A stretch of DNA of 64,000 nucleotides from contig CAYVEC010000006.1 of the NCBI GenBank assembly GCA_964450385.1, forward strand, positions 8,745 to 72,744, read 5' to 3'. The DNA comes from an uncultured Planctomycetales bacterium. Lineage in GTDB: Bacteria; Omnitrophota; Gorgyraeia; Zapsychrales; JANLHA01. Under the pieces are notes generated by a model that saw nothing but the letters and a program-made list of their open reading frames with translations, was not told the DNA's origin and made no database searches. Shown piece after piece: positions 30,169 to 62,403 of this stretch. Made by a program: the position numbers and the translations under genes. Position 1 is the stretch's first letter. Each line of letters begins with the position of its first letter.

Positions 30169-31395
30169 ATGCCAAATACCAAGGTCCATATTTCTCAAGA
30201 ACAAGAACTCGAGGTCCTCAGAAAAATTCTCAGCATCACCTCATCCGCTGTTGATCTCGACAAGACGCTTCAGGAGACGGTGAAGATCGTGACGGCTTTT
30301 ACGGGCGCGGACTCGGTCTTTGTGTATCTCCTTGATAAGGCGCATCGTACTCTGGTCCTCCGGGCCTCTAAGATCCCGCACAAAAAGGAACTAGGCGTCG
30401 TGCACATCGGACTCGGCGAGGGGATCACCGGATGGGTGGCCCAGCAGAACAAGCCGGTTGCGATTGCTGAGAACGCGTATCAGGATAAGCGGTTTAAGGC
30501 GTTTGACGTTCTGCCTGAGGACCAGTATGAGGCCTTTTTGTCCGTGCCGCTTATTTATAAGGACAAGGTCAGCGGGGTCATCAATGTTCAGCATCGCGAG
30601 CCGCATGAGTACAGCCGTGAAACCGTGAACCTGATCCACATGATCGCCTCTCAGATCAGCGGGGTCATTGAGCACGCGCGGCTTTTTGAGGAGACGAAGG
30701 TCAAAGCGGGTCAGTTCGACCGGCTCGTCAAGGTCAGCGAATCGATCACCTCGCAGGCGTACCTCGATGAGATCTTAAATCTGATCGTGGTCGTGACCGC
30801 GGAGATGCTTAATTCAAAGATCTGTTCGATCATGCTGCTCGAGGACAAAAAAGGCGAAGAGCTCGTCATCCGCGCCACCCAGAGCCTGAGCGAGGAATAC
30901 AAGAAGAAGCCGAATCTCAAAGTCCGTCACAGTCTTCTCGGCGACGTGATCCGGACCCGCCAGCCCATTACGGTTGAGGATGTGCGCGCCGACGCGCGTT
31001 ATGCCCACCGCGCCCTGGCCATCCGTGAGGAGCTGACATCGATGGTGGCGGTCCCGATGATCGTTAAGAACAAGGTGATCGGGGTGATCAATGTCTATAC
31101 CAAGGAACCGCATCAGTTCGTCCAGGAGGAGATCAACGTTCTTCAGATGGTCGCGAATCAGGCAGCCGTGGCCGTGGAGAACACGAATCTGGTCTCTGAG
31201 GCGGTGAAGGCGAAGGAGGCCCTGGAGACCCGGAAATTCGTCGACCGGGCCAAAGGGATCCTGATGCGCCTGCATTCGCTGGATGAGGATACTGCCTACC
31301 GCATGATCCATAAAAAAAGCATGGATGCGTGCAAAACCATGAAAGAGGTCGCGGAATCGATCATTTTATTTGATGATCTGGGCCGCAAGGAATGA
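30169..31395 (+). CDS. GAF-GAF-ANTAR RNA-binding antitermination regulator
   Basis: Two GAF domains then C-terminal ANTAR helix bundle (...ETRKFVDRAKGILMRLHSLDEDTAYRMIHKKSMD...); first ATG 30169. Confidence 0.75.
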   Translation: MPNTKVHISQEQELEVLRKILSITSSAVDLDKTLQETVKIVTAFTGADSVFVYLLDKAHRTLVLRASKIPHKKELGVVHIGLGEGITGWVAQQNKPVAIAENAYQDKRFKAFDVLPEDQYEAFLSVPLIYKDKVSGVINVQHREPHEYSRETVNLIHMIASQISGVIEHARLFEETKVKAGQFDRLVKVSESITSQAYLDEILNLIVVVTAEMLNSKICSIMLLEDKKGEELVIRATQSLSEEYKKKPNLKVRHSLLGDVIRTRQPITVEDVRADARYAHRALAIREELTSMVAVPMIVKNKVIGVINVYTKEPHQFVQEEINVLQMVANQAAVAVENTNLVSEAVKAKEALETRKFVDRAKGILMRLHSLDEDTAYRMIHKKSMDACKTMKEVAESIILFDDLGRKE

Positions 31396-31574: not shown

Positions 31575-31603
31575 TTGACACAAAAAACATCGCGAGGTAT
31601 AGT
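31575..31603 (+). promoter_or_regulatory. consensus sigma70-type promoter for the nfn-gdhA unit
   Basis: TTGACA (31575-31580), 17-nt spacer, TATAGT (31598-31603); leaves about 150-nt leader before nfnA ATG. Confidence 0.6.
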
Positions 31604-31758
31604 ATCTTACCGCTTGAGGCATTGAGGTCTCGGGCGACCTTTTATTAAGGTAGGCAGCGTTGCCGTCACGATTGAAGTTGTGCCTATTGACCCCTTAACA
31701 ATCCCAAAGGACATGTGAGGGGATTTTTCTTTTTATTGACCCCCTGGGGAGGGTTGTC

Positions 31759-34137: not shown

Positions 34138-35511
<1,374 letters not shown>

Positions 35512-36824: not shown

Positions 36825-39371
36825 GTGGACGGGGCCATGATCAGCGCGCGGACCGTAGAGGTCCCGGCAACGCCTGCGACAATGGACCGGTGGAAGAGCA
36901 CGTTTGAAAATGGACTTGTAGCCAGCTTGTATTTGGTTGATCCGAAGGCAGCAACAGGAGAGCCTGTTGATATCAGCGGTGCGTCCGAGGACTCGGCCAT
37001 GCTGAGCGAGGCGGAGGCGAAGGATTTTTATGAAAGCGACCTTCAAGGAGTTGGGAGAGTTCAATGGCAGAATCTTTCTATAAAGTCGAGAGCGGTGCTT
37101 CAAGAGATCGGCAGGGATCCGAGGCTACTGGAGCTTGGGAAAGCCGCCGGGGCGAATGCGCGGAACTTGTTTTATGATGGTTTGCCGGCAGTGAAGGCGC
37201 TGTTTGGTGACGAGTTTGGTAAGTATTGGCCGGGCTTAGTCGAGTTGGGAAAAGCCGCGGGTGAAAATGCTGGGTATTTGTTTCAACATGGATTGAAGAT
37301 GGTCTACCCTTTTGTTGATCCGGCTCACGGCTGGGACGAGTGGATCAACAGGTGGCGCCAATTGGCCCGGGTCACGAATGAACACAATCTGCAAAGAATC
37401 ATTGATTTAATGAGATGGACATCGATCCTCACTTATGTCAAAGACCAGGGAGGCAGCGTTGATCAGCACTTTGATTTTTATGTTGAGCTGAGCAAAGAGA
37501 ATAAGCGTCTTGCCCTGCAAGTTTTAGAGGGGGTCTTTGACGGTTTTAAAGAAGGGAGCCTTTCTGTTGAATTAACCGACGAGGCGCGAGGCGAGATCAG
37601 GGGCTTTATTAGAAAAACGAATGGTTTTAACCTGGCCGTGTATCGTGTTTATCAACAGGAGGGCGAGGCCGGGCTGGTGAGGTTGCGGGCGTTTGCAGCA
37701 AACGCGTTGAATGACCAGGTGGGCAAGACAGAGGTCCAAGAGTTTTTAGCGGACAACCGATCCCGAGGATACGATGCCGAGTCGCTGCTTCTTGGGACAG
37801 CGCAGATGTTTGTTCCGGCCAGCGGCGCCTCGTTTGTGAATAAGGAAGAGATCTTGGGGCTGTTGAAGGAATTTATCGAGGCCGGTGACCGGCGCGGGGA
37901 TGTGCCGGAGGCGCTCCGGGGGTCGAGCTTTGGTGGTGGGGATATTGAGGTGGTGGAGTGGCGGTTAAAACAAGGGGAAACGGTTGATCCTGACGGGAGG
38001 CTGAATAGACTCGTCTCGCAGTTGAGGAACGGAGACCAGGGCCGATCAGCAGACGAGGTTGCGAAGGCTCAAGCCCAAGACCGGGCGGAGTTGGTTGCCG
38101 CGGTCAAAGAATATTTAAAGGGCCGCGGCCAGGAGACACGAGACCGGGCTGTAGAGGCCTTTTTAAGATATGTGAGCCACAATGATCTATTAAAAGAGAA
38201 GATCGATCGGATCGACGGATATGATTATGTGAATATTGAGCTGTTGGATCAGTTGTTCCGGGATAAAGACCAGCTTTTTATTCTGTTGAGGGAGATCATT
38301 GAGAAAGATATTGAAGAAGAGCTGCTGATTGTGGAAGGTGACGAGGGCGCGCCTGTTCGCGATGTTGAGGGGCTGGTCAATCGGGTCGAGGGCGTGTGGA
38401 GATCAGAGCGGCTGGGCCGTGATCAACGGCGTCAGGTTGTGGGAAACATGCTGCGGGGGTTTTCAGGGGCAGAGGTTCGGTCAAAGATTGTCCCTCGGCT
38501 TGAGGGAGAGGCCCGCGAGGCGGTCGAGGAGATTTTGAATGATCACTCGGTTCGGTGGAAGATGGATGTGGCGCAGGTGATCAATGATCTTTTGAGCGGC
38601 CCGGCCCAGGTCATCGCGCGTGAGAAGGCGCGGTTTGAGGCGGTCACGGGAGGACAGCGGATCCAGTTGAGGTTCCGGGCGGTGAAGGGTCCGTTGTATG
38701 GCCTATGGGGGCTGAATGCGGGCGTGTGTATCGCGACGGATGTTGAGTTATGGAAGGACGGGAATTTTTATCTTCTGGCTATGGTTGATGAGACGATCGG
38801 TCAGGCGGTGGGATTTATTCATCTCTACGCGCAGACGATGGATGGGCGGCGGGTCGTGGTTGTTCCGGGGATCGAGCCGAGCGTGGAATTTTTGGGGCAG
38901 GTTAAGGTGAGTGACATTTATCCGATGATCGAGGCGGCGTTACGTGAGGTGGCGGTGCGGGCGGGGTATGAGGCGGTGTATCTGCCAACGAATGAAAATA
39001 TTTTGAGCAACCGGGGGGATATTCAGAAGCTGGTGACGAGGGCGGGGTACAAGATCTCGGATAAATTCAAGGGGCCGGTCCGCTGGAATCATGTGCCCGG
39101 GCCCGCTCTTATTCATCAGGTGTATGACGTGCCGGTCACCAAGGCGAAAACTGACTCGGCCATGCTGAGCGAGGCGGCGTCTGAGCCGGCACAGATCGGC
39201 CGCGATCAGGTGGGCGGCATTGACCTCGCCGGGATCAATATTGATATGGTGATCCGCGGTGAGATGCCGTTTCAGATGCCGGCCATCACAGAGGAGGCCC
39301 TGATCATGGATGCGGATTTCAGCGGGCTGGTGCCCGTGGTACATTTTGTGGTGCCGGTGGCTGTGAAATGA
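36825..39371 (+). CDS. hypothetical large protein (848-aa segment; frame continuous with 35787-36665 across a single TAG; possibly one 1.19-kaa protein or a pseudogene)
   Basis: Uninterrupted 2.5-kb ORF, lower GC than flanks, no known motifs recognised; internal 30-aa tandem repeat (ELGKAAGxNAxxLF) and 25-bp perfect direct DNA repeats at 36990 and 39153. Confidence 0.5.
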   Translation: MDGAMISARTVEVPATPATMDRWKSTFENGLVASLYLVDPKAATGEPVDISGASEDSAMLSEAEAKDFYESDLQGVGRVQWQNLSIKSRAVLQEIGRDPRLLELGKAAGANARNLFYDGLPAVKALFGDEFGKYWPGLVELGKAAGENAGYLFQHGLKMVYPFVDPAHGWDEWINRWRQLARVTNEHNLQRIIDLMRWTSILTYVKDQGGSVDQHFDFYVELSKENKRLALQVLEGVFDGFKEGSLSVELTDEARGEIRGFIRKTNGFNLAVYRVYQQEGEAGLVRLRAFAANALNDQVGKTEVQEFLADNRSRGYDAESLLLGTAQMFVPASGASFVNKEEILGLLKEFIEAGDRRGDVPEALRGSSFGGGDIEVVEWRLKQGETVDPDGRLNRLVSQLRNGDQGRSADEVAKAQAQDRAELVAAVKEYLKGRGQETRDRAVEAFLRYVSHNDLLKEKIDRIDGYDYVNIELLDQLFRDKDQLFILLREIIEKDIEEELLIVEGDEGAPVRDVEGLVNRVEGVWRSERLGRDQRRQVVGNMLRGFSGAEVRSKIVPRLEGEAREAVEEILNDHSVRWKMDVAQVINDLLSGPAQVIAREKARFEAVTGGQRIQLRFRAVKGPLYGLWGLNAGVCIATDVELWKDGNFYLLAMVDETIGQAVGFIHLYAQTMDGRRVVVVPGIEPSVEFLGQVKVSDIYPMIEAALREVAVRAGYEAVYLPTNENILSNRGDIQKLVTRAGYKISDKFKGPVRWNHVPGPALIHQVYDVPVTKAKTDSAMLSEAASEPAQIGRDQVGGIDLAGINIDMVIRGEMPFQMPAITEEALIMDADFSGLVPVVHFVVPVAVK

Positions 39372-39411: not shown

Positions 39412-39440
39412 TTGACAATCCCAATCTCATCGTGTATATT
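39412..39440 (+). promoter_or_regulatory. consensus sigma70-type promoter of amt-glnK unit
   Basis: TTGACA (39412-39417), 17-nt spacer, TATATT (39435-39440); about 200-nt structured leader follows. Confidence 0.6.
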
Positions 39441-39640
39441 TTAACCAACTGAAGGCGCTGGGGTCTTCAGGAAAAAGATGGACGCGACAGTGAAGTCCTC
39501 AACGGTCAGGCGATGATGCCTCCGACGAGGATTTTTTTGTTGGTCCATGAGTTGGGGCAGAGACGTCCTTAAAGGGCTTAAGACCGGAAAAGCCTTTTAG
39601 GGATTTTTTGTTTTCTGCGCCACACCACAAGGAGAAAAAA

Positions 39641-52285: not shown

Positions 52286-52312
52286 GGGCTGTGACCGCGG
52301 ATGTGTTTTTTG

Positions 52313-52337
52313 GGGCGCCTTGTTAGGCGCCCTTTTT
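52313..52337 (+). terminator. rho-independent terminator after gltD, shared with convergent transporter gene
   Basis: Stem GGGCGCC/GGCGCCC, loop TTGTTA, then TTTTTATTT; stop codon of minus-strand SSS gene lies in the loop. Confidence 0.7.
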
Positions 52338-53630
52338 ATTTGTCCGGGGGCTCGACGGGCCGAACAGGATAACGGCGTTCATGAGGAAGCCGGCCAGGAT
52401 AACGGCATTCCCTCCCGGGACTGACGTGAGGACGAGGATCTTTCCGGCGAGCGCGGTGAGGCCTCCCGCGGCGCAGGCGGTCATGGCCCGTGAGGCGGTG
52501 GTCTTAAAACCGCAGAGCCCCGCGAGGACCGGGATCGTGAAGGCCCCGGAGAAAAAACTGAACGCCAGGAGCAGGGATTGAATGATGTTCGCGACCATGA
52601 GCGCGATCATGAGGCTCACGGCGCCGATGAGAAGAATAAGCCGCTGGGTGAGGCGGATCGAGGGCGGTTGTTTTAGATCGATAAAAAATTCACTGGAGAT
52701 CGAGGCCGCGGTGAGCAGGGTCGTGTCCGCGGACGAGATCACCGCCGAGAGCAGGGCGATCCCGATGATCGGCGAGAGGAGAGGGCCGGAGAGAAAGCCG
52801 AAGCCGTGCCGATGCCCGGTCGTCGCGATCAGGACGAGCGCGGCCGAGACCGGGACGAGGAGCAGGACCGTGACCAGGACCGAACGCCGGGCGGTCTGTT
52901 CATCCCGCGCGCAGAAGAGGCGTGAATAGACGTCTGGTCCGACGAGGAATGTCGTTGCGTAGGTCATGCCAAGGACCGCGAGGTCCAGGGAGGTGAAGGA
53001 GGGGTTAAAGGGAAAGGTGGCATGGATCTGATTCCACGACGGGATCCCGGCCGCCTTGATCGCCGCGGCGGCGGAAGATCCAAGGCCGACCAGCATGAGG
53101 AGCAATTGCCAGAGGTCTGTCCGGATGATCGAGCGCTGTCCGCCGAGTGCGGTGTAGAGGGCCAAGACAAGGGCCGTGAGCGCGGCGCCCCAGGGATAGG
53201 ACAGAGGGGTGAGGGCCGCGATGATTTTACCGGCGCCGATGATCTGTGCCGCGACGACGCCGGTCCAGGCGAGCGGGATCATGGCGCAGGCGAGCCGTTT
53301 GACGCCTGTCCCATAAAAATGTTCGAGGAGATCCGGCAGGGTGAATTGAGCCTGTCGGCGCACGCGCTCTGCGAGCGGGATCAAGGCGAGAAGCCCGAGG
53401 CCTCCGGACCAGAGGAGCCAGACCGCGGCCCAGCCCGTTTTTTGTGCCAGCGACACGGTCCCCAGGATCGCGGAACTGCCGAGGATCGTGGCGAGGAGGC
53501 TCGCGGTGGTAGCGGTGGTTGCGTTCGCCTGTCCGGCCAGATAAAAGTCCTGCGGCTTATGGGCTCTGCGCGCGTAGATGAGCCCGATGCCGAGCGAGAA
53601 GGCAAAAAAGACAAGCATTAGAAGGGTCAT
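52323..53630 (-). CDS. sodium:solute symporter (SSS) family transporter
   Basis: 435 aa, about 12 TM; SSS-like N-terminus ...FYLAGQANATTA... and Gly-rich helices. Confidence 0.8.
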   Translation of the reverse strand: MTLLMLVFFAFSLGIGLIYARRAHKPQDFYLAGQANATTATTASLLATILGSSAILGTVSLAQKTGWAAVWLLWSGGLGLLALIPLAERVRRQAQFTLPDLLEHFYGTGVKRLACAMIPLAWTGVVAAQIIGAGKIIAALTPLSYPWGAALTALVLALYTALGGQRSIIRTDLWQLLLMLVGLGSSAAAAIKAAGIPSWNQIHATFPFNPSFTSLDLAVLGMTYATTFLVGPDVYSRLFCARDEQTARRSVLVTVLLLVPVSAALVLIATTGHRHGFGFLSGPLLSPIIGIALLSAVISSADTTLLTAASISSEFFIDLKQPPSIRLTQRLILLIGAVSLMIALMVANIIQSLLLAFSFFSGAFTIPVLAGLCGFKTTASRAMTACAAGGLTALAGKILVLTSVPGGNAVILAGFLMNAVILFGPSSPRTNKKGA

Positions 53631-54146
53631 GGAGATACTTTACTTAAAAAGGCAGGGCAAGGCAACTGGAAATATTAAGGAAAACGTTACGCTGCGGCGG
53701 TGATGATGGGCTATGATTGGCCTGGAAATCGTCTGGACGTGGTCTGATCGCTTTGGCGTGTCGCAGGAGGCGGCCGGGGGCGCTGATCATGGAATGCTTG
53801 CGACGGACGCCTCGTTAAAGCGCGGCCCCGAGGGCGGGATCGATTTCAAAAATATTTTTGTCACGGAGAGCGGCGCCGCTGCCGGAGCGGCCGCTCAGGG
53901 TCTCGAGGTGCAGTCCATCCAGATCCTTAGGGATGAGATCGTCGGGCTGTATCCTGTGATCACCGGGGTCGACCTTGGGGTGAATGCCATGAATTTTTAA
54001 TCCCACCGCCTTCGCGGTCAGGGGTTTTCCTGCCGAAACGCCTCAGGAATTTCAATTGCGTCCGATATATCTTATAGTATAATAAAACAGTTTTTGCGGG
54101 GGGTATCTTTTATTAAAACAGGTTTGATCCTCAGGGGGGAAAAGAC

Positions 54147-54608
54147 ATGAAACGCGCGATTCTCGTATTCGCAGCCATGCTGCTCATCACGGGGTGCGGC
54201 AAGCCGGCTCAGACCGGGGCGCCGGATAGCGCCGGAGAGAGTCCGGAGGCCAAGTATATCAATGAGGCGGTCGCGTTTTTGCAGAACAGACAGCCCACGG
54301 AGGCGATCCTGTCCTTAGAGAAGGCGATTCGGACGAACCCGAAGGAGCTTCAGTCCTATATGTTGATGGGGCAGACATATATGCATATGAATGATTTTGT
54401 CAATGCCACGGAGACCTATCGAGCGGCCCTGCGCGTGGCGCCGGACCGGGGGGAATTATATTATCTCTTGGCCATGACGTATGCCTTTCAGGGGAACAAG
54501 CCGGAGGCGATTAATAATGCTGAAAAGAGCCTCTTGATCTTCCAGAAGGAGCGCGATGAGGAGAATTTTAAGCGCGCCCTTTCCATGCTTCAGGGATTGT
54601 CACAGTAG
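54147..54608 (+). CDS. TPR-repeat lipoprotein
   Basis: Lipobox LITGC; three TPR-like helical repeats; 153 aa. Confidence 0.65.
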   Translation: MKRAILVFAAMLLITGCGKPAQTGAPDSAGESPEAKYINEAVAFLQNRQPTEAILSLEKAIRTNPKELQSYMLMGQTYMHMNDFVNATETYRAALRVAPDRGELYYLLAMTYAFQGNKPEAINNAEKSLLIFQKERDEENFKRALSMLQGLSQ

Positions 54609-54648
54609 GTGCAGCGCGCTGATTGTTAGGGGCTTTCTCGACGGAGAG

Positions 54649-54703
54649 TGTCAAGGATTGGCCGGTGAAAGTCCTTGACATTGGCGGGTGATAACGGTAT
54701 AGT
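54649..54703 (+). promoter_or_regulatory. carA promoter with overlapping 9-bp inverted-repeat operator
   Basis: IR TGTCAAGGA-N14-TCCTTGACA; right arm contains -35 TTGACA (54675-54680), 17-nt spacer, -10 TATAGT (54698-54703). Confidence 0.55.
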
Positions 54704-54724
54704 AAACTATGTTTTAGGGCATTG

Positions 54725-54764
54725 AAGTCCTCAAAATTGTGGTTAATTTTGAGGACTTTTTTTG
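54725..54764 (+). terminator. leader hairpin + T7 in carA 5' UTR (candidate transcription attenuator)
   Basis: Near-perfect 14-bp stem AAGTCCTCAAAATT/AATTTTGAGGACTT, loop GTGGTT, then TTTTTTTG, located between promoter -10 and carA ATG. Confidence 0.55.
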
Positions 54765-54805
54765 TGAAAAAATCAAGTTCGGCGTATTTTCAAGCTGGGG
54801 AATCC

Positions 54806-55936
54806 ATGAAACGGGCGGTTATTTATTTAGAAGACGGGGTGATGTTTTACGGCCGGTCCCTTGATGTCACGGGTGAGTCCGAGGGCGAGGTTGTCTTTAA
54901 CACCTCGATGACCGGTTATCAGGAGATCCTGACGGACCCGAGTTATGCCGGTCAGATCGTGACCATGACGTATCCGCTTATTGGAAATTATGGGGTCAAC
55001 GGCGATGATGTTGAGTCGGACCGCGTCCATGTGAAGGGTTTTGTCGTCAAGGAATTCTGCCGCCGCCATTCGAATTTCCGCGCCACCGAAAGCCTGATCG
55101 ATTATCTAAAGCGTTATCAGATCCTCGCGGTTGAGGGGGTGGACACCCGGGCACTCACACGTCATCTTCGCGAGCATGGGTCGATGCGCGCGATCTTGTC
55201 GACCGAGGACATGGACCCGGCCTCGCTGGCTAAAAAAATGACACGGGTCCCGTCGATGGACGGGGCGGATTGGGTGAGCGCGGTCACGGCCCGTGAGCCG
55301 TATGTCTGGCCGGCGGAGGGGGCGTATCAAGACCGTCCGAGGTTTCGCGTCGCGGTCATTGACTGCGGGGTCAAGTGGACGATCCTGCGTATCTTTGCCC
55401 GGCTTGGGTGCGAGTGCCATGTCTTTCCGGCCGGGACGGCGCTCGAGGCGATGCTTGCTATTCGGCCGGATGGGCTCTTTATTTCAAACGGTCCCGGGGA
55501 CCCGGCGGCCGTGACCTCTGTTATCGCCGAGACGCGCAAGGCGATCGGCCGGCTGCCGATCTTTGGGATCTGCCTCGGCAATCAGATCTTGGGGCTAGCC
55601 CTGGGCGGACGGACCTATAAATTAAAGTTTGGACATCACGGGGCGAATCACCCGGTCCTGGATACGAGCCATGCCCGGATCGGGATCACATCGCAGAACC
55701 ACGGATTTTGTGTGGACCTTAATTCACTTGATCGGAAGGATATCGAGATCATCAACCTGAATCTGAACGATCAGACGGTCGAGGGAATTCGGCATAAACG
55801 ATATCCGATCTATGCGGTGCAGCATCATCCCGAGGCCGCGCCGGGGCCGCACGATGCCAGGTATTTGTTTGAAGATTTTATCCGGATGATGAATGAGAAT
55901 GCAACAGGGGTCGGGCGGCCAGCGGGCCGTCGCTAG
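54806..55936 (+). CDS. carA: carbamoyl-phosphate synthase small (glutaminase) subunit
   Basis: MKRAVIYLEDGVMFYGRSLD... CarA N-domain + class I GATase triad (GICLGNQ, HH); ATG 54806 (ORF-track TTG 54722 runs through leader hairpin). Confidence 0.9.
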   Translation: MKRAVIYLEDGVMFYGRSLDVTGESEGEVVFNTSMTGYQEILTDPSYAGQIVTMTYPLIGNYGVNGDDVESDRVHVKGFVVKEFCRRHSNFRATESLIDYLKRYQILAVEGVDTRALTRHLREHGSMRAILSTEDMDPASLAKKMTRVPSMDGADWVSAVTAREPYVWPAEGAYQDRPRFRVAVIDCGVKWTILRIFARLGCECHVFPAGTALEAMLAIRPDGLFISNGPGDPAAVTSVIAETRKAIGRLPIFGICLGNQILGLALGGRTYKLKFGHHGANHPVLDTSHARIGITSQNHGFCVDLNSLDRKDIEIINLNLNDQTVEGIRHKRYPIYAVQHHPEAAPGPHDARYLFEDFIRMMNENATGVGRPAGRR

Positions 55937-55945
55937 GGACAGAGT

Positions 55946-58900
55946 ATGCCGAAACGCAGCGATATCCATAAAATTTTATTGATCGGGTCCGGGCCGATTG
56001 TGATCGGCCAGGCCTGTGAATTTGACTATTCCGGCACTCAGGCCTGTAAGGCCTTGCGGGAGGAGGGCTATGAGGTTGTCTTGGTGAATTCCAATCCGGC
56101 GACGATCATGACCGACCCCGAGACCGCGGATGCAACCTATATTGAGCCGCTCACCGTTGAGTTCGTCGAGAAGATCATTGAGAAGGAACGGCCTGACGCG
56201 GTGCTTCCGACCCTCGGGGGCCAGACGGGGCTGAACCTCGCGATCGCGCTTTATGAGGCGGGAGTTCTTGAGCGTTACGGGGTCAAGATGCTCGGGGCGG
56301 CCTATGAGGTGATCAAGAAGGCCGAGGACCGGGAACATTTTAAAAAGGCGGTCGAGAGCATCGGGCTCGATCTGCCCCGGAGTGCGTTCGCCCGGACCAT
56401 GGACGAGGCCTGGGCCGCGGCCGAGGAGATCGGGTTCCCGCTGATCATCCGGTCGTCGTTCACCCTCGGCGGGACCGGCGGCGGGATCGTGCGCGACCGC
56501 GCGGATTTTGAACGTATGGCCTCGCTCGGTCTCGACAGCAGTATTATCCGCGAGATCCTCATTGAGGAATCGATCGAAGGGTGGAAGGAATATGAGCTCG
56601 AGGTCATGCGCGACACAAAGGATAACGTCGTCATCGTTTGTTCGATTGAAAACCTTGATCCCATGGGGGTCCATACCGGCGACAGCATTACGGTTGCGCC
56701 GCAGCAGACGCTGACCGATGCCGAGTACCAGGAGATGCGTGATGCCTCGCTCGCCTTGATCCGTGAGATCGGCGTCGAGACCGGCGGATCGAATATCCAG
56801 TTCGCGGTGGATTCCGAGAACGGCCGCATGGTCGTGATCGAGATGAATCCCCGCGTCTCGCGGAGTTCGGCCCTGGCGAGCAAGGCGACGGGGTTCCCGA
56901 TCGCGAAGTTCGCGGCGAAATTGGCGGTGGGGTATTCGCTCGACGAGATCCAGAACGATATTACCCGCGAGACCCCGGCGAGTTTCGAGCCGGCCATTGA
57001 TTACTGCGTGGTCAAGGCCCCGCGTTTTACCTTTGAGAAATTCCCCGAGGCCCAGGACATCCTCGGCGTCCAGATGAAATCCGTCGGTGAGACCATGGCG
57101 ATCGGCCGGACCTTTAAGGAGGCCCTGCAGAAGGCTCTGCGCGGGCTTGAGATCGGCCACGCCGGGCTCGACAACAAGCTCGATTATCGTCAGATCCCGC
57201 CGGAAAAGATCATCCAGCGCCTGAGCGAGCCGAACGCCTCTCGGATCTTTTATATCAAATACGCGTTTCAGGCCGGGATGTGCCTTGAGGAGATCGCGCG
57301 CATCAGCCGGATCGATCCCTGGTTCTTGGCGCAGATCGAGCAGATCCTTGACCTGGAACGCGATCTTGTGGCCGCGGCCGAGGCGAACGCTCTGACCCCC
57401 GAACTTCTCCGGCAGGCCAAGGAATACGGGTTCGGGGATGCCCAGCTCGCCGTGATCTTTAAGACCACGGAGCTCGAGATGAGGGCGCGGCGTAAAGCCC
57501 TGGGGATCACCGCTGTTTTTAAGCAGGTCGACACCTGCGCGGCCGAGTTCGAGGCGTATACCCCGTATTATTATTCGACGTATGAAAAGGAAGACGAGTC
57601 CGGAATCCGGGCCCGTGAGGCCTCCTCGCGGAAAAAGCGGATCATGATCCTCGGCGGCGGGCCGAACCGGATTGGTCAGGGGATCGAATTTGATTACTGC
57701 TGTTGTCATGCCTCCTTTGCCTTAAAAGAGATGGGGTTCGAGACGATCATGGTGAACTCGAATCCCGAGACGGTCTCCACAGATTATGATACCTCGGACC
57801 GCCTATATTTTGAGCCGGTGACCTTTGAGGATGTGATGAACATTGTGGAGGTCGAACGGCCGGACGGCGTTATTGTCCAGTACGGCGGCCAGACCCCGCT
57901 CAATCTTGCCCGGCGGCTTCATGAGGCCGGGGTCCCGATCATCGGGACGTCGGTGGATTCGATCGACCTCGCAGAGAACCGGGAACTCTTTTCCAAATTT
58001 ATCACGGGGCTCGGGATCGAACAGCCGGCCAACGGATCGGCGAATTCCGTCGAGGATGCAGTCGCCGCGGCCTCGGCGATCGGGTATCCCGTCCTGGCGC
58101 GGCCGTCGTATGTCCTGGGCGGGCGCGCGATGCGGATCGTTTATGACCGCGATGAACTGCTCCGTTTTATCGACGCGGCCAAGGAGGTCTCGGCGGGTCA
58201 TCCGATCCTCATCGATAAATTTATTGAGGACGCGATTGAGGTTGACGTTGATGCGATCTCGGACGGCCGGGATGTTGTGGTGGCCGGGATCATGGAGCAC
58301 ATTGAGAATGCCGGGATTCACTCCGGGGATTCGGCCTGTGTGATCCCGCCTCCGACGATCAGCGAGGCGACGCTTGAGCGGATCCGCGAGTGCACGCGCC
58401 AGATGGCGCTCGGCCTTCATGTGGTGGGCCTGATGAATGTCCAGTTCGCGATCAAGGGGAGCCGGGTGATGGTTCTTGAGGTCAATCCGCGCGCCTCGCG
58501 CACGATCCCGTTCGTGGCCAAGGCCACGGGCAATCCGGTCGCGAAGATCGCGGCCCAGATCATGGCCGGGAAACAGCTGGGTGATTTTCAATTGAACCTC
58601 GGCGACCCGGACCATTTTTCGATCAAAGAGTCTGTCCTGCCGTTCTCTCGTTTTTCCGGCGTGGATATTGTCCTAGGACCTGAAATGAAATCGACTGGCG
58701 AGGTTATGGGGATCGCGGCCTCGTATGGGGAGGCCTTCGCGAAATCGCAGATCGCGGCCGGCCAGAGCCTGCCGCGCGAGGGTGCGGTCTTTATCAGCGT
58801 GAACGATGAGGATAAGCGCCAGACGATCTTTGTCGCCAAAAAATTGAGGGATCTCGGATTTGACCTTGTGGCCACGAGGGGAACGGCCAAGGTACTCCGC

Positions 58901-59197
58901 TCGAACGGGGTTCCGGTGGAGGTCGTTGAGAAATGCGGCGAGGGTCAGCAGGACCTGATGAAGCTGGTCCGCGGGGGGCGCATCCGCCTGATTCTAAATA
59001 CACCGTCGGGGTCCCGGAGTCAGTCCGACATGCGGGCGATCCGCGCGGCGGCGATCCTTCACGGGGTGCCGTGTATCACGACACTTCAGGGGGCCTGGGC
59101 CGCGGTCAACGCCCTGGACGTCGCGGGTCAGGCGGGGTGGTCGGTCTGTTCGCTTCAGGATTATTATGCCCGGCGGACTCAGGGCCCGAAAGGCTAG
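55946..59197 (+). CDS. carB: carbamoyl-phosphate synthase large subunit
   Basis: 1083 aa; duplicated ATP-grasp halves, oligomerisation domain, MGS-like C-terminus. Confidence 0.95.
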
Positions 59198-59224
59198 GCA
59201 GGGTCGTGATCGAGAGGGGGACGT

Positions 59225-60598
59225 ATGTGCGGGATCATCGGAATATCGAATCAGCCCGAGGCAAGCAAGGCCATTTATTTGGGGCTCTACGCCCTTCAGC
59301 ACCGCGGTGAGGAGGCGGCCGGGGTGGCCTCGTTCGACGGAGACCGGGTGCATCTGATCAAGAATCCCGGGCTCGTCACGGACGCCTTGAGCCCGCAGGA
59401 CCTTGACAGGCTGAAAGGCCGCGCCGCGATCGGGCACTGCCGGTATTCGACGACCGGATCGAGCAATGTGAAGAACACCCAGCCGTTCCTCGTCCGTCAC
59501 CGCGGGCAGTCGATCGCGATCGCCCACAATGGCAATTTGACGAACACCGCCGAGCTCCATCACCGCCTCGAAGAGGAGGGATCGCTGTTTCAGACCACGA
59601 TGGATTCGGAGCTCATCGTTCATCTCTTGGCCAAGGAAAAGGCCGGCGACCTTGCGGGGATGTTCACGAACGTCCTCCGCCAGCTCGAGGGCGCCTTCTC
59701 GCTCGTCTTTCTCGTTGGAGACACGATTGTCGGGGCCCGGGACCCCAAGGGCTTTCGGCCCCTGTGCCTGGGGAAGGCCGCTGAGGGGTATGTCCTTGCG
59801 AGTGAGACATGTGCCTTTGACCTGATCGGCGCTGAGCACGTCCGGGAGATCGAGCCTGGTGAACTGGTCATTATCAAGAAAGACATCTTGGAGACGTATC
59901 GTTATGCGCAGACATCAGGGGCTTCGGCCCAGTGTATTTTTGAGAATATCTATTTTTCTCGTCCAGACAGCCGTATTTTTGGTGACAATGTATATTTGAC
60001 ACGCAAACGCTTGGGCGCGCAGCTCGCCAAGGAACACCCGAAGCGAGACGCGGATTTTGTGATGGCGATCCCAGATTCGGGAAATTACGCGGCCCTGGGG
60101 TATGCGCAGGAGATCGGTCTGCCGTTCGAGACCGGGATGATCCGGAACCACTATATCGGTCGGACGTTTATCCAGCCCACGCAGTTCATCCGCGAGGCTC
60201 GGGTCCGGGTCAAGCTGAATCCGATTCGGGAGGTTCTGGCCGGCAAGAGCGTTGTCGTTGTCGAGGACTCGATCGTGCGCGGGACTACGAGCCGGAGCCG
60301 GATCGAGGCGATCCGGAAGGCCGGGGCGCGCGAGATCCACATGCGGATCAGCTGTCCGCCGATCCAGTGGCCGTGTTTTTACGGGATCGATTTTCCTAAT
60401 AAAAAAGAATTGATCGCTTCGAATCAGACGGTCGAGGAGATCGCCCGTTTTATCGGGGTGGATTCGCTCGGGTATCTGAGCCGGGAGGGGATGCTTTCGG
60501 CGATGGCGACGAAGGGGACGTTCTGTCACGCGTGTTTTTCAGGGACGTATCCAGTGGCGGTCCCGGGCGGGCAGGGGAAATATCTGCTTGAAGCATGA
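59225..60598 (+). CDS. purF: amidophosphoribosyltransferase
   Basis: N-terminal MCGIIGI (Ntn Cys after Met removal), PRT-type domain, C-terminal Cys residues for Fe-S cluster. Confidence 0.9.
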   Translation: MCGIIGISNQPEASKAIYLGLYALQHRGEEAAGVASFDGDRVHLIKNPGLVTDALSPQDLDRLKGRAAIGHCRYSTTGSSNVKNTQPFLVRHRGQSIAIAHNGNLTNTAELHHRLEEEGSLFQTTMDSELIVHLLAKEKAGDLAGMFTNVLRQLEGAFSLVFLVGDTIVGARDPKGFRPLCLGKAAEGYVLASETCAFDLIGAEHVREIEPGELVIIKKDILETYRYAQTSGASAQCIFENIYFSRPDSRIFGDNVYLTRKRLGAQLAKEHPKRDADFVMAIPDSGNYAALGYAQEIGLPFETGMIRNHYIGRTFIQPTQFIREARVRVKLNPIREVLAGKSVVVVEDSIVRGTTSRSRIEAIRKAGAREIHMRISCPPIQWPCFYGIDFPNKKELIASNQTVEEIARFIGVDSLGYLSREGMLSAMATKGTFCHACFSGTYPVAVPGGQGKYLLEA

Positions 60599-60649
60599 GG
60601 GTTCAGACCAGAGTCCAGAGATGAGGGCGCATAACGATAGGGGCGGAGG

Positions 60650-62257
60650 ATGAGTAAATTCATTTTTGTCACCGGGGGCGTTGTTTCGAGTCTGGGCAAA
60701 GGGCTGGCGTCGGCCTCGATCGGAAAATTGCTCGAGGAGCGCGGGCTCAAGGTCGCGTTCATCAAATGCGATCCGTATCTGAACGTCGATCCCGGGACGA
60801 TGAGCCCCTTTCAGCATGGCGAGGTTTATGTCACGGATGACGGCGCCGAGACGGACCTCGACCTCGGTCATTATGAACGGTTCACCCATGCTGTCTGCAC
60901 CCGTTCGAGCAATATCACGACGGGCAAGATCTATTATTCGGTGATCACGAAAGAACGCCGGGGGGATTATCTCGGTAAGACGATCCAGATTATCCCGCAT
61001 ATTACGAACGAGATCAAGGACGCGATCCGCCGGGTCCCCAAGGAGCAGGATGTCGATGTCACGATCGTGGAGATCGGCGGCACCGTCGGCGACATCGAGA
61101 GCCTTCCCTTTTTGGAGGCGATCCGTCAGATGCGCTGGGAACTCGGAGAGGGTTACGCGATCAACATCCATGTGACCCTTCTGCCTTATATCAAAGCCGC
61201 GGGGGAGCATAAGACCAAGCCGACCCAGCACAGCGTCGGACGGCTTCGCGAGATCGGGATCCAGCCGGATTTCCTGCTCTGCCGGACTGAAAAACACATG
61301 ACGAAGGATCAGCGGGATAAGATCTCGCTGTTCTGCAATGTCGACCGCGATTCGGTCATTGAGGCGATCGATGTCAAAAGCATCTATGAGGTCCCGCTCT
61401 TTTTTAAGAAACAGCGGCTCGATGACCTGATCCTGCGGAAACTGAATATCCCGCGCGAGGACAGGGAGATGACCTCGTGGGAGGAGGTGGTGGGCCGCGT
61501 CCGCCAGCCTGGGCATGAGGTCCGGATCGCTGTCGTTGGGAAATATATCGCCCTGCCGGACGCGTATAAATCGATCTATGAGGCCCTGACCCACGGCGGG
61601 ATCGCGAATGACACGCGGGTCTGTGTCGAGAAGATCGATTCCGAAGACCTGGAGAAGGGCGGGAACCCGGGCCAGTATCTCGCGACAGCGGACGGGATCC
61701 TGATCCCCGGCGGGTTTGGCGATCGGGGGATCGAGGGAAAGATCACGGCCGTGCGCTACGCCCGCGAACAGGGGGTTCCGTTCTTTGGCATCTGTCTCGG
61801 CATGCAGGTGGCCACGATCGAGTTCGCCCGGAATGTCTGCGGCATGGACGCCGCGAATTCAACGGAATTCAAGGTCGACACCCCGCATCCGGTGATCAGC
61901 CTTCTTGAGGAACAAAAGACGGTCCGGACCAAGGGGGCCACGATGCGCCTCGGATCCTATGAGTGCCGTCTCGCAAAGTCCTCGCGGGCCTACGCGGCCT
62001 ATGGTCAGGAGACGATCCATGAACGGCATCGTCACCGGTATGAATTTAACGGCGCCTACCTCGATGCCCTGACAAAGCATGGGGCTGTTGTCGCCGGGAC
62101 CAATCCCGAGACCGGGCTCGTTGAGATCATTGAGATCCCGGCCCACCCCTGGTTCGTGGCCTGCCAGTTCCATCCGGAATTCAAGTCAAAACCGGACCAG
62201 GCCCATCCCTTATTTCGGCATTTCGTCGCCGCGGCCCTCGCGCGTCAGAAACGCTGA
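60650..62257 (+). CDS. pyrG: CTP synthase
   Basis: N-terminal synthetase domain [19 protein letters not shown]-terminal GATase GICLGMQ; 535 aa. Confidence 0.95.
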
Positions 62258-62321
62258 AATAAAAATAAGTGTATTTTTTGACATTTATCTATATAATGGT
62301 TCTGCCCTAAAGGGTTTGGGG

Positions 62322-62340
62322 AGGCCGGTGAGGCCTTTTT
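62322..62340 (+). terminator. weak terminator-like hairpin after pyrG
   Basis: AGGCC-GGTGA-GGCCT then TTTTT. Confidence 0.35.
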
Positions 62341-62403
62341 CGCGGCGGTGACACCTGTGGCCGGAGGGGCAGATTGACAAGCGATGTTCCTGGTTGGAGT
62401 TTC

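What the first reader, a model, noticed from the sequence alone, without database searches (positions are those of the whole stretch)
54649..54805. carA leader: inverted-repeat operator over the -35 box plus a near-perfect 14-bp hairpin-T7 attenuator
TGTCAAGGA-N14-TCCTTGACA overlaps the -35 box of a TTGACA-17-TATAGT promoter, which points to a dimeric repressor site. About 20 nt after the likely TSS the transcript forms AAGTCCTCAAAATT-GTGGTT-AATTTTGAGGACTT followed by TTTTTTTG, a strong intrinsic terminator placed 40 nt upstream of the carA ATG. The ORF-track start, TTG 54722, runs straight through it. The 5' arm (AAGTCCTCAAAA) resembles the operator arm (AAGTCCTTGACA). The carAB-purF-pyrG unit therefore looks controlled at both initiation and attenuation. 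The mechanism could be PyrR-like, UTP-sensitive, or ANTAR-mediated, and the sequence does not distinguish these.
Basis: seen in the sequence. Interest (0 to 1): 0.55.

Follow-up and report, generated by a model that had tools for sequence, protein, structure and literature searches.

The report
ANTAR-type attenuator before carAB-purF-pyrG operon
The short leader in front of the carbamoyl-phosphate synthase operon of this Omnitrophota bacterium is a real transcription stop signal that competes with a tiny upstream hairpin, and that hairpin has the loop signature bound by ANTAR RNA-binding regulators, one of which is encoded 23 kb upstream; so the operon is most likely switched on by nitrogen status, not by a repressor at the promoter.

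Summary

The "operator" repeat is absent from every orthologous promoter and fits chance. The attenuator is conserved in 7 distinct Omnitrophota carA leaders, with two different upstream genes.

Its 3' strand is the base of the terminator's 5' arm, and P1 strand, shared strand and terminator 3' arm covary three ways. The hexaloop carries the ANTAR signature: A1 in 6/7 and G4 in 6/7 orthologues.

The window encodes a GAF-GAF-ANTAR protein (30169-31395) at the head of a nitrogen gene island. The island's two other strong promoters, before an NADPH-glutamate synthase/GDH unit and before amt-glnB-GSIII-nadE-gltBD, are followed by the same GGC-hexaloop-GUC hairpins. The amt leader holds two terminators of the same overlapping design.

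Best explanation: ANTAR-mediated antitermination, with termination as the default. No PyrR site was found. The GUUUU start may add UTP-sensitive reiterative transcription, on weak evidence. I file it as a new single-hexaloop variant of a known mechanism, in an unstudied phylum.

The parts
54675..54703 (+). Sigma-70-type promoter of the carA operon: TTGACA, 17-nt spacer, TATAGT. The predicted start is G54711, the 8th nt after the -10 box (inferred, not mapped).
   Evidence: A near-consensus promoter sits at the same place in about 30 orthologous carA leaders.
54711..54715 (+). Initially transcribed G-UUUU tract. It is a candidate site for UTP-sensitive reiterative transcription. In this window it can also extend P1 by pairing with A54733-36 across a bulged C.
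   Evidence: [AG]TTTT lies exactly at the 8th nt after the -10 box in 8 of 49 carA promoters, against 1 of 42 other strong promoter matches (Fisher p=0.035, post hoc). The folded nascent 5' part is -6.6 kcal/mol. For comparison, E. coli carAB P1 starts GUUUGC (PMC6245113).
54716..54731 (+). P1 antiterminator mini-hairpin. 5' strand AGGGC 54716-20, hexaloop AUUGAA 54721-26 (A1 = 54721, G4 = 54724), 3' strand GUCCU 54727-31.
   Evidence: 98% of cells are paired and two pairs show compensatory change. Loop A1 is kept in 9/10 and G4 in 9/10 across 7 carA orthologues plus 3 sister hairpins of the window. It is the best hit of model R1, at 28.2 bits.
54725..54763 (+). Intrinsic terminator (the attenuator). 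5' arm 54725-38, loop GUGGUU 54739-44, 3' arm 54745-58, U-run 54757-63. The 5' arm shares 54725-31 with P1.
   Evidence: The terminator fold is -19.9 kcal/mol, against -10.2 for the fold with P1 enforced.
54806..62257 (+). The regulated operon: carA 54806-55936, carB 55946-59197, purF 59225-60598, pyrG 60650-62257. The operon-end terminator is at 62321-62341.
   Evidence: NCBIfam equivalog hits above the curated cut-offs. The terminator was read.
30169..31395 (+). Candidate trans-acting factor: a 408-aa GAF-GAF-ANTAR protein.
   Evidence: Pfam ANTAR PF03861 E=7e-20. The ANTAR region matches Rv1626 1s8n, EutV 6wsh/6ww6 and NasR 4akk. GAF1 matches the PtsP (EI-Ntr) GAF domain (3ci6 E=1e-22; NF008283 2e-38) and GAF2 matches the NifA GAF domain (2e-28). 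Homologues at 65-78% identity are found throughout Omnitrophota, some on contigs whose lengths match those carrying carA homologues.
31575..31758 (+). Sister leader 1, before the NADPH-glutamate synthase (31759-34106) and GDH (34150-35511) unit. It has a TTGACA-17-TATAGT promoter, a 5'-terminal hairpin CGCUUGAGGC-AUUGAG-GUCUCGGGCG (31611-36), three further AUUGA motifs, and a terminator-like hairpin with U-run at about 31691-31735.
   Evidence: The exact pattern GGCATTGARGTC occurs only here and in the carA leader, and in both it starts 15 nt after the -10 box. ATTGA occurs 4 times in 150 nt (Poisson p=8e-5).
39413..39640 (+). Sister leader 2, before amt-glnB-GSIII-GATase-nadE-gltB-gltD.
- Promoter: TTGACA, 17-nt spacer, TATATT.
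- 5'-terminal hairpin 39449-70 with hexaloop GCUGGG.
- Attenuator 1: GAC-AGUGAA-GUC 39486-97 overlapping terminator 39493-39540.
- Attenuator 2: GGGGC-AGAGAC-GUCCU 39554-69 overlapping terminator 39565-39611.
   Evidence: The 12-mer TGAAGTCCTCAA is shared exactly with the carA leader. The 5'-terminal hairpin is the best hit of model R1 outside its training set, at 17.6 bits.
54636..54645 (+). Conserved upstream DNA motif TTCTCGACGG, 31 nt upstream of the -35 box. Its function is unknown.
   Evidence: The same motif lies at the same distance (30-31 nt) in WIN, L001, L161, L169, L166, L170, L163 and L172, and in variant form (TCGTCG) in L164 and L173. It is present whatever the leader type. It is not enriched elsewhere in the window.
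54649..54680 (+). It is judged incidental.

Best explanation
The carA leader is a protein-dependent transcription attenuator of the ANTAR type.

Proposed sequence of events:
1. RNA polymerase starts at about G54711, from the consensus promoter at 54675-54703.
2. Nucleotides +6 to +21 of the transcript fold into a 5-bp hairpin, P1 (AGGGC-AUUGAA-GUCCU). Its hexaloop has A at position 1 and G at position 4.
3. The 3' strand of P1 is also the G+C-rich base of the 5' arm of a 14-bp intrinsic terminator (54725-54763). Left alone, the terminator wins by about 10 kcal/mol, so most transcripts should end at about +53. The default state is off.
4. When the GAF-GAF-ANTAR protein encoded at 30169-31395 is in its active state, it binds the P1 hexaloop and holds P1 closed.
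5. The five base pairs next to the U-run then cannot form. Only the A/U-rich upper hairpin remains, separated from the U-run, and polymerase reads on into carA-carB-purF-pyrG.
6. The same protein would act on the amt...gltBD leader and the glutamate synthase/GDH leader. The glutamine-consuming first steps of pyrimidine, arginine and purine synthesis would then be tied to nitrogen status.

What is shown:
- The promoter, P1, the terminator and their overlap.
- Their conservation and covariation.
- The ANTAR loop signature.
- The ANTAR gene, and two sister leaders with the same motif in the same gene island.

What is inferred:
- The transcription start.
- That this particular protein binds P1.
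- The ligand. Glutamine and/or 2-oxoglutarate is suggested only by the resemblance of the GAF domains to those of PtsP and NifA.
- The direction of the response.

A second and weaker layer is possible. The GUUUU start may reduce productive initiation at high UTP through reiterative transcription, as at E. coli carAB P1.
For: 1. P1 and the terminator are mutually exclusive. They share 54725-31.

2. There is three-way covariation in 7 orthologous leaders. At the fifth position of the shared strand, the P1 partner, the shared base and the terminator partner are A/U/A in four leaders, G/U/G in one and G/C/G in two. At the second position, U-A changes to C-G in the terminator while P1 keeps G.U or G-C.

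3. Across 10 hairpins, P1 is 98% paired and two pairs show compensatory change. Only 8-9 of 500 shuffles do as well, and slid registers give only 40-64% pairing.

4. The hexaloop has A1 in 6/7 and G4 in 6/7 carA orthologues, and 9/10 each when the window's sister hairpins are added. This is the published ANTAR signature: A and G at loop positions 1 and 4, and a hairpin that overlaps the terminator (PMC3369931, PMC8934654).

5. An ANTAR-domain protein is encoded in the window, and it has EutV, NasR and Rv1626 as solved relatives.

6. The exact pattern GGCATTGARGTC occurs only twice in 128 kb of both strands, where 0.015 is expected. In both cases it starts 15 nt after the -10 box of the window's only two TTGACA-17-TATAGT promoters.

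7. TGAAGTCCTCAA is shared exactly with the amt leader.

8. All three promoter-proximal terminators that the scan detected in the window carry an overlapping A1/G4 hexaloop hairpin. None of the gene-end terminators does.

9. The best hit of model R1 outside its training set is the amt 5' hairpin.

10. The regulated genes are all ammonium or glutamine enzymes. This fits the known bias of ANTAR regulons towards nitrogen metabolism, including glutamate, glutamine and arginine synthesis.

11. The attenuator stays with carA even where the upstream gene differs.
Against: - The canonical ANTAR target has two tandem hexaloop hairpins, and EutV binds one hairpin less well than two (PMC3369931). The carA leader has room for only one, because just 3-7 nt precede P1. 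The terminator's own apical loop, GUGGUU, has G4 but not A1, and it is not conserved in the orthologues.
- Two orthologues each deviate at one signature position: GUUGAU in L023 and AAUACG in L164.
- The covariation rests on few independent events among 7 related sequences.
- The transcription start is only predicted.
- No binding, termination or expression data exist.
- Co-regulating ammonium uptake and glutamine-consuming biosynthesis in the same direction is not obviously logical.
- Many sister lineages with a similar ANTAR gene have quite different carA leaders (classes B and C).
Confidence: 0.62

Rival explanations
1. UTP-sensitive control without a protein. The GUUUU start causes reiterative (stuttering) transcription at high UTP, which reduces productive initiation as at E. 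coli carAB P1 and pyrBI. Alternatively, added 5' U residues pair with the A-tract of the terminator's 5' arm, in the manner of B. subtilis pyrG. This could be the main mechanism or a second layer.
For: - G followed by TTTT lies at the 8th nt after the -10 box in WIN, L001, L161, L012 and L014, and A followed by TTTT in L009, L015 and L033. That is 8 of 49 carA promoters against 1 of 42 other strong promoter matches (p=0.035).
- The two non-pyrimidine sister leaders (amt, GDH) lack the T-tract.
- E. coli carAB P1 starts GUUUGC and is regulated in this way (PMC6245113).
- In WIN and L161 the UUUU can pair with AAAA across a bulged C, which extends P1.
Against: - The enrichment is post hoc and weak. 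With a looser definition it disappears (17/49 against 9/42, p=0.24).
- Three attenuator-bearing orthologues lack a run of 3 or more T at that place: L164 has AGTTCG, L169 has TATTAA, and in L086 the tract lies upstream of the predicted start.
- The U/A extension of P1 is not conserved (L001, L164).
- Pairing of a poly-U tail with the A-tract would raise expression at high UTP, which is the wrong sign.
- The mechanism does not explain the conserved A1/G4 loop, nor the same hairpin in the amt and GDH leaders.
Confidence: 0.15
2. Ribosome-coupled attenuation of the pyrBI type. A leader peptide starts at the UUG/AUG in the P1 loop (TTG 54722) and is translated through the terminator. When UTP is low, polymerase pauses in the U-rich arm and the closely following ribosome prevents the hairpin from forming.
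For: - NUG occupies loop positions 2-4 in 5 of 7 orthologues.
- The reading frame from that position stays open through the whole terminator and U-run in 6 of 7. It ends either in frame with carA (WIN, L169) or at a UGA that overlaps the carA ATG (L161, L023, L164). These frames were read from the sequences.
- The mechanism would give the right regulatory sign for a pyrimidine operon.
Against: - There is no usable Shine-Dalgarno sequence. AGGG ends 2 nt before the start codon and is itself paired in P1.
- The start codon is AAG in L086 and AUA in L164.
- The open frame largely follows from the conserved 35-nt distance between the loop and the U-run in five leaders, so it is not independent evidence.
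- The same hairpin motif occurs in the amt and GDH leaders, where no such ORF is needed.
Confidence: 0.06
3. PyrR-type attenuation. A PyrR protein loaded with UMP or UTP binds the leader and favours the terminator.
For: carA leaders carry PyrR sites in many Gram-positive bacteria (background knowledge). The leader contains a GUCC...GAGGAC element.
Against: - The Rfam PyrR model scores 16.4 bits against a gathering score of 54 (E=5.2), and the match spans the untranscribed promoter.
- No Rfam family reaches threshold in the window or in 20 related loci.
- Only about 50 nt lie between the start and the end of the terminator, which leaves no room for the three-structure PyrR switch.
- No pyrR gene was seen among the window's genes.
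Confidence: 0.02
4. Repression at initiation by a dimeric DNA-binding protein at the inverted repeat TGTCAAGGA-N14-TCCTTGACA over the -35 box.
For: The repeat is perfect and overlaps the -35 box.
Against: - The left arm is absent from all orthologous promoters.
- The right arm is the conserved -35 context.
- Repeats of this size occur at the chance rate in the window.
- The conserved upstream element is instead TTCTCGACGG, 31 nt upstream of the -35 box.
Confidence: 0.04
5. An unregulated leaky terminator, or a short stable RNA. The hairpin merely damps output from a consensus promoter, or it defines a roughly 53-nt small RNA with a function of its own, for example a decoy for the ANTAR protein like EutX.
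For: The terminator is strong and lies close to a consensus promoter. Terminated transcripts would carry an ANTAR-type loop only transiently. Decoy RNAs are known for EutV (PMC8934654).
Against: - The three-way covariation shows selection for the alternative pairing, not only for the terminator.
- In the terminated fold the hexaloop is buried in the stem, so it would be a poor decoy.
- The design recurs twice in tandem before amt, which is typical of regulated attenuators.
Confidence: 0.08

Closest known systems
ANTAR antitermination systems: EutV/eutP in Enterococcus faecalis, NasR/nasF in Klebsiella oxytoca, AmiR/amiE in Pseudomonas aeruginosa
   Same: - A short-stem hairpin with a hexaloop, A at position 1 and G at position 4.
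- The hairpin is mutually exclusive with an intrinsic terminator in a 5' leader.
- An ANTAR-domain protein is encoded nearby.
- The target genes deal with nitrogen metabolism.
- Several leaders form one regulon (PMC3369931, PMC8934654).
   Different: - The carA leader has a single hexaloop hairpin at the extreme 5' end of the transcript. That hairpin itself overlaps the terminator. In the canonical motif a free P1 is followed by a P2 buried in the terminator arm. The amt leader of the same window does have the two-hairpin layout.
- The sensor is GAF-GAF, an architecture for which I found no characterised example. The known systems use a receiver, NIT or AmiC-controlled domain.
- The targets include carAB, purF and pyrG.
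BglG/SacY/LicT antiterminators with their RAT element
   Same: One protein-stabilised hairpin whose 3' side overlaps the 5' arm of the terminator, with termination as the default (description in PMC3369931).
   Different: RAT is a hairpin of about 29 nt with internal loops and its own consensus, bound by CAT/PRD proteins and used for sugar operons. No such protein or sequence was seen here.
E. coli carAB P1 and pyrBI: UTP-sensitive reiterative transcription
   Same: The same gene (carA), and an initially transcribed G followed by a T-run placed 7-8 nt after the -10 box (PMC6245113).
   Different: E. coli carAB has no leader terminator and relies on many DNA-binding factors. Here the T-run is not conserved in all attenuator-bearing orthologues, and its role is untested.
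B. subtilis pyrG attenuator: CTP-sensitive reiterative transcription with a 5' poly-G antiterminator (from my own knowledge: Meng, Turnbough and Switzer 2004)
   Same: The 5' end of the transcript pairs with a pyrimidine-rich 5' arm of a leader terminator. A GGGC motif is present, and pyrG belongs to the operon.
   Different: GGGC lies at +7 to +10, not at +1, so G-reiteration at initiation is not possible. The pairing is templated and closes a conserved hexaloop.
PyrR binding site (Rfam RF00515)
   Same: A leader terminator in front of a pyrimidine gene.
   Different: The sequence and structure model is not matched (16.4 bits against 54), and the leader is too short for the antiterminator/anti-antiterminator scheme.

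Membership tests
ANTAR target RNA | [quoted passage not shown] | tested here: met
   P1 is 5 bp (54716-20 with 54727-31) and has the 6-nt loop AUUGAA. All 7 orthologues also have a 6-nt loop.
ANTAR target RNA | A at loop position 1 and G at loop position 4 | tested here: met
   Window: A54721 and G54724. Orthologues: A1 in 6/7 and G4 in 6/7. With the three sister hairpins of the window: 9/10 and 9/10. The definition is taken from PMC3369931 and PMC8934654.
ANTAR target RNA | Two tandem hexaloop hairpins (P1 and P2) joined by a short linker | tested here: not met
   - Only 5 nt precede P1 in the window, and 3-7 nt in the orthologues, so no second upstream hairpin is possible.
- The upper part of the terminator forms a hairpin next to P1. 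Its loop, GUGGUU, lacks A1 and is not conserved.
- The amt leader of the same window does have two such hairpins, at 39449-70 and 39486-97.
- Walshe et al. 2022 argue that a single hexaloop is the minimal binding unit.
ANTAR target RNA | The hairpin overlaps an intrinsic terminator, so the two are mutually exclusive | tested here: met
   P1 and the terminator's 5' arm share 54725-31. The terminator fold is -19.9 kcal/mol and the P1-enforced fold is -10.2. Three-way covariation supports both pairings.
ANTAR target RNA | An ANTAR-domain protein is encoded in the same genome | tested here: met
   Window 30169-31395 matches PF03861 with E=7e-20. Its ANTAR region matches EutV, NasR and Rv1626.
ANTAR target RNA | The ANTAR protein binds the RNA and raises read-through in response to a signal | not testable with these tools
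   This needs gel-shift assays and in vitro transcription, or a reporter in a surrogate host.
PyrR binding site (RF00515) | A match to the covariance model at the gathering score | tested here: not met
   16.4 bits against 54, E=5.2, and the match includes the promoter.
UTP-sensitive reiterative transcription promoter (carAB P1 / pyrBI type) | A run of at least 3 T directly after a purine start, 7-8 nt downstream of the -10 box | tested here: met
   G54711 followed by TTTT 54712-15, with G the 8th nt after TATAGT. The definition is taken from PMC6245113.
UTP-sensitive reiterative transcription promoter (carAB P1 / pyrBI type) | The T-run is conserved in orthologues and specific to pyrimidine promoters | tested here: inconclusive
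   8 of 49 against 1 of 42 (p=0.035, post hoc). The run is absent or shifted in L164, L169 and L086.
UTP-sensitive reiterative transcription promoter (carAB P1 / pyrBI type) | UTP-dependent production of poly-U transcripts | not testable with these tools
   This needs in vitro transcription at varied UTP.
Leader-peptide (pyrBI-type) attenuator | A conserved leader ORF with a ribosome-binding site, starting upstream of the terminator and running through it | tested here: inconclusive
   An open frame runs through the terminator in 6 of 7 leaders. However, there is no usable Shine-Dalgarno sequence, the start codon is missing in 2 of 7, and the frame follows from the conserved hairpin length (sequences).

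The most novel reading that the evidence does not exclude
A previously uncharacterised class of ANTAR regulator (GAF-GAF-ANTAR, with GAF domains like those of PtsP and NifA) is the master nitrogen regulator of Omnitrophota. It would sense glutamine and/or 2-oxoglutarate directly. It would work through 5'-terminal single-hexaloop antiterminators placed at a fixed distance from consensus promoters. Its reach would extend beyond ammonium assimilation (amt, glnB, GS-III, GOGAT, GDH) to the glutamine-dependent entry steps of pyrimidine, arginine, purine and CTP synthesis (carAB, purF, pyrG). The carA leader would then show that a single hexaloop overlapping the terminator is enough for ANTAR antitermination in vivo.
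Probability: 0.35. Interest if true: 0.7.

Novelty: new variant of a known kind. Interest (0 to 1): 0.55.

Why it matters
If this is right, three consequences follow.
- It gives the first predicted target set for a GAF-ANTAR regulator. This domain architecture is listed as abundant, but I found no characterised example of it.
- It provides a natural test of the recent structural claim that one hexaloop is the minimal functional ANTAR site.
- It shows that nucleotide-precursor synthesis (carAB, purF, pyrG) can be wired into a nitrogen-status RNA regulon, instead of the usual pyrimidine, arginine or purine repressors.

It also offers the first concrete regulatory circuit for Omnitrophota, a phylum without cultured free-living representatives. 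The circuit is small enough, at about 55 nt of RNA and one protein, to be rebuilt in vitro.

Tried and rejected
- **Known RNA families.** I ran Rfam at gathering threshold on the whole window and on 20 related loci. I also ran permissive Rfam scans on the carA, amt and GDH leaders. No relevant family appeared.
- **Plasmid collection.** A near-identity search found no match.
- **Inverted-repeat operator.** Rejected for lack of conservation and on chance statistics.
- **Leader peptide.** Considered in detail and set aside. The start codon is not conserved, there is no Shine-Dalgarno sequence, and the frame conservation is explained by the conserved hairpin length.
- **Poly-U 5' extension pairing with the A-tract (pyrG-like).** Rejected as the main mechanism. 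The pairing is not conserved and the regulatory sign is wrong.
- **A second hexaloop in the apical part of the terminator.** Not conserved.
- **More instances of the composite motif.** I searched for GGGC-N6-GYCCYC...TTTTTT in the 174 loci then held. Only the carA leaders matched.
- **Model R1 on 42 related loci.** Only the sequences it was trained on matched.
- **GDH-operon leader in a relative.** I tried to reach it through the ANTAR protein P0124. There the operon converges on the ANTAR gene and its leader lies beyond the fetched 6-kb flank.
- **TCTCGACG elsewhere in the window.** Not enriched.
Full report
**1. The observation**

- The inverted repeat is TGTCAAGGA (54649-57) and TCCTTGACA (54672-80), 9 bp perfect with a 14-nt gap.
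- The promoter is TTGACA (54675-80), a 17-nt spacer and TATAGT (54698-703).
- The hairpin is a perfect 14-bp stem (54725-38 with 54745-58) with loop GUGGUU.
- The U-run is at 54757-63, and the carA ATG is at 54806.

The TTG at 54722 that the ORF track uses lies in frame upstream of the real start. All CarA orthologues begin at the position of M54806, with MK.A(I/V).YLEDG.

Downstream lie carA, carB, purF and pyrG, all matching NCBIfam equivalogs above their cut-offs. A terminator at 62321-41 ends the operon. A TPR gene (54147-54608) lies upstream.

The closest CarA relatives are all from Candidatus Omnitrophota, with 78% identity at best.

**2. The 'operator'**

I aligned about 30 orthologous carA promoters on their -35 boxes.
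- Nearly all have a near-consensus TTGACA-16/17-TATA(G/T)T promoter 50-120 nt before carA.
- The left arm occurs in the window alone.

Perfect 9-bp inverted repeats with short gaps occur 9 times in the window, against 5.2 expected. Those that are not terminators equal the chance number. I conclude that the repeat is incidental.

What is conserved upstream is a different element. TTCTCGACGG (54636-45) lies 31 nt before the -35 box in the whole TPR-carA clade, whatever the leader type. It is a better candidate for a protein site, and its function is unknown.

**3. The attenuator is real and belongs to carA**

The composite pattern GGGC-N6-GYCCYC...TTTTTT occurs in the 174 loci then held only in carA leaders. 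Six distinct orthologues carry it: L001, L161 (= L162), L164 (= L165), L169, L023 and L086. With the window that makes seven.

In L023 and L086 the upstream gene is an inositol monophosphatase, not TPR. The order promoter, hairpin, carA is the same in all.

**4.

Directly after the predicted start lies a 5-bp hairpin, P1: AGGGC (54716-20), AUUGAA (54721-26), GUCCU (54727-31). Its 3' strand is the first part of the terminator's 5' arm.

Folding gives -19.9 kcal/mol for the terminator and -10.2 for the state with P1 enforced. In the P1 state the upper, A/U-rich part of the terminator survives as a hairpin that no longer abuts the U-run. The same holds in all seven leaders.

The pairings covary three ways.
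- At the fifth shared position, the P1 partner, the shared base and the terminator partner are A/U/A in four leaders, G/U/G in one and G/C/G in two.
- At the second shared position, U-A changes to C-G in the terminator while P1 keeps G.U or G-C.

On ten hairpins (seven carA leaders plus three from elsewhere in this window), P1 is 98% paired and two pairs show compensatory change. Only 8-9 of 500 shuffles reach this, and slid registers give 40-64% pairing.

The loop is always six nucleotides. A is at position 1 in 6 of 7 carA leaders, and G is at position 4 in 6 of 7.

**5. What reads the loop**

A hexaloop with A1 and G4, on a short stem that competes with a terminator, is the published recognition element of ANTAR antiterminator proteins (Ramesh et al. 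2012, PMC3369931; Walshe et al. 2022, PMC8934654).

I surveyed the window's larger ORFs with Pfam and NCBIfam. The survey found a GAF-GAF-ANTAR protein at 30169-31395.
- Its ANTAR domain scores E=7e-20.
- Its ANTAR region matches EutV, NasR and Rv1626.
- Its first GAF domain matches the GAF domain of PtsP (EI-Ntr), and its second matches that of NifA.

The gene heads a 32-kb island made almost entirely of ammonium and glutamine genes:
- NADPH-glutamate synthase and GDH
- amt, glnB and type III glutamine synthetase
- a GATase and glutamine-dependent NAD synthase
- gltB and gltD
- carA, carB, purF and pyrG.

Homologues of the regulator at 65-78% identity are common in Omnitrophota. Several sit on contigs whose lengths equal those of contigs carrying carA homologues. 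In one relative the gene again neighbours the glutamate synthase/GDH genes.

**6. Sister leaders**

A scan for near-consensus sigma-70 promoters finds four in the window. Three of them head the island's three transcription units: 31575, 39413 and 54675.

*The leader at 31575.*
- It opens with CGCUUGAGGC-AUUGAG-GUCUCGGGCG.
- The exact pattern GGCATTGARGTC occurs only there and in the carA leader. In both it starts 15 nt after the -10 box, and 0.015 occurrences are expected.
- The leader holds four AUUGA motifs (p=8e-5) and a terminator-like hairpin.

*The amt leader.*
- It has a 5'-terminal GGC-GCUGGG-GUC hairpin.
- Next comes GAC-AGUGAA-GUC overlapping a terminator. This is the canonical two-hairpin layout.
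- Next comes GGGGC-AGAGAC-GUCCU overlapping a second, 14-bp terminator.
- The 12-mer TGAAGTCCTCAA is shared exactly with the carA leader.

*Scans of the whole window.*
- A terminator scan gave 68 terminator-like hits, three of them promoter-proximal. All three carry an overlapping A1/G4 hexaloop hairpin, and the gene-end terminators do not.
- A covariance model of the hairpin finds, as its best hit outside the training set in 128 kb, the amt 5' hairpin at 17.6 bits. The next hit scores 13.4.

**7. Mechanism**

I conclude that the leader works by ANTAR-type antitermination. Termination at about +53 is the default, and binding of the GAF-ANTAR protein to the P1 loop lets polymerase read through.

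Still inferred are the start site, the identity of the binding protein, the ligand and the sign of the response. Glutamine or 2-oxoglutarate is only suggested, by the GAF relatives.

One defining feature of the family, two tandem hexaloops, is not met in the carA leader. There is room for one hairpin only. I therefore file it as a single-hexaloop variant and not as a canonical member. Walshe et al. argue that one hexaloop is the minimal unit, whereas Ramesh et al. measured weaker binding to one hairpin.

**8. Rivals**

- *PyrR* is excluded as far as sequence can tell: 16.4 bits against 54, and a leader too short for the switch.
- *UTP-sensitive reiterative transcription* remains possible as a second layer. 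The start reads G-UUUU, as at E. coli carAB P1 (PMC6245113). [AG]TTTT at that exact place is more common in carA promoters than in other strong promoter matches (8/49 against 1/42, p=0.035). The test is post hoc, a looser test is not significant, and three attenuator-bearing orthologues lack the tract at that place.
- *A pyrBI-like leader peptide* is suggested by an open frame through the terminator in 6 of 7 leaders. It lacks a ribosome-binding site and a conserved start, and the frame follows from the conserved hairpin length.
- *A constitutive leaky terminator* does not explain the covariation of P1.

**9. Novelty**

ANTAR regulons for nitrogen metabolism are known, including predicted sites before arginine, glutamate and glutamine synthesis genes. 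I found none of the following described:
- a GAF-ANTAR regulator with defined targets
- an ANTAR site before carAB-purF-pyrG
- the 5'-terminal single-hairpin layout
- any such circuit in Omnitrophota.

I therefore rate it a new variant of a known kind, of moderate interest.

Noticed in passing
window 39413-39640: The amt (ammonium transporter) leader carries a 5'-terminal hexaloop hairpin followed by two tandem attenuators. Each attenuator is an A1/G4 hexaloop mini-hairpin overlapping an intrinsic terminator. The whole leader folds with a z-score of -6.25. The unit it controls appears to run from amt to gltD and to end at the terminator at 52312-52339.
   Followed up: partly
window 31575-31758: The leader of the NADPH-glutamate synthase/GDH unit has a 10-bp 5'-terminal hairpin with hexaloop AUUGAG. 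It also contains the direct repeat UAUUGACCCC, once just before the terminator's 5' arm and once just before a hairpin that sequesters the Shine-Dalgarno sequence. UUAAGG (31645-50) can pair with either ACCUU or CCUUAA, which suggests a more elaborate switch.
   Followed up: partly
window 31421-31566: Between the ANTAR gene and the next promoter lie a promoter-like site (TTGACA-17-TATTCT), a strongly structured element of about 110 nt (z = -5.85) and a terminator. This could be a small RNA. A decoy RNA for the regulator (like EutX for EutV) is conceivable, but I saw no clear A1/G4 hexaloop in it.
   Followed up: partly
window 54636-54645; the same place in L001, L161, L163, L166, L169, L170, L172: The DNA motif T(T/G)TCGACG(G) is conserved 30-31 nt upstream of the carA -35 box across the TPR-carA clade, independent of leader type. 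It is a candidate transcription-factor site of unknown identity.
   Followed up: partly
L004, L006, L008, L013, L082, L087, L089, L091, L174 (carA leaders, about 60-70 nt before the ATG): A second, different conserved carA leader occurs in sister Omnitrophota lineages. It begins CAG|GC at the predicted start, continues with a hairpin of variable sequence, and ends (U)CCYRCC. It has no terminator and no Rfam match. It may be a separate structured RNA motif.
   Followed up: no
L017, L021, L024, L038, L047, L068, L123, L144 (before carA); L074 at 1303 (upstream of the gene preceding carA): A third conserved leader occurs in more distant Omnitrophota. It is a long terminator hairpin that starts 2-3 nt after the predicted start: ACAAAGGCGUUUAG-..GCCG-loop-CGGCACUAAACGCCUUUUUUU. 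The stems are highly conserved in sequence and there is no room for an upstream antiterminator. It has no Rfam match. In several other loci (L020, L034, L036) pyrG lies directly upstream of carA.
   Followed up: no
window 12181-12337: A 6S RNA (Rfam RF00013, 71 bits) overlaps the start of the mechanical ORF 12192-13721 (an MgsA-type AAA+ ATPase), so the true start of that gene must lie further downstream. The window also has five tRNA genes, including a cluster of three at 1770-2067.
   Followed up: no
window 30007-62257: About 32 kb of the window is an almost uninterrupted island of ammonium and glutamine genes: the ANTAR regulator, two kinds of glutamate synthase, GDH, amt, PII, GS-III, a GATase, NadE, and CarAB, PurF and PyrG. 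It is interrupted by two ORFs with no family match (35787-36665 and 36825-39371), an oppositely oriented sodium/solute symporter (52323-53630), a short ORF with no family match (53713-54000) and the TPR gene.
   Followed up: partly
window 35637-35674: A perfect 17-bp palindromic hairpin flanked by A-runs and T-runs (AAAAAGGCCATATAT...ATATATGGCCTTTTT) follows GDH. It would act as a bidirectional terminator.
   Followed up: no
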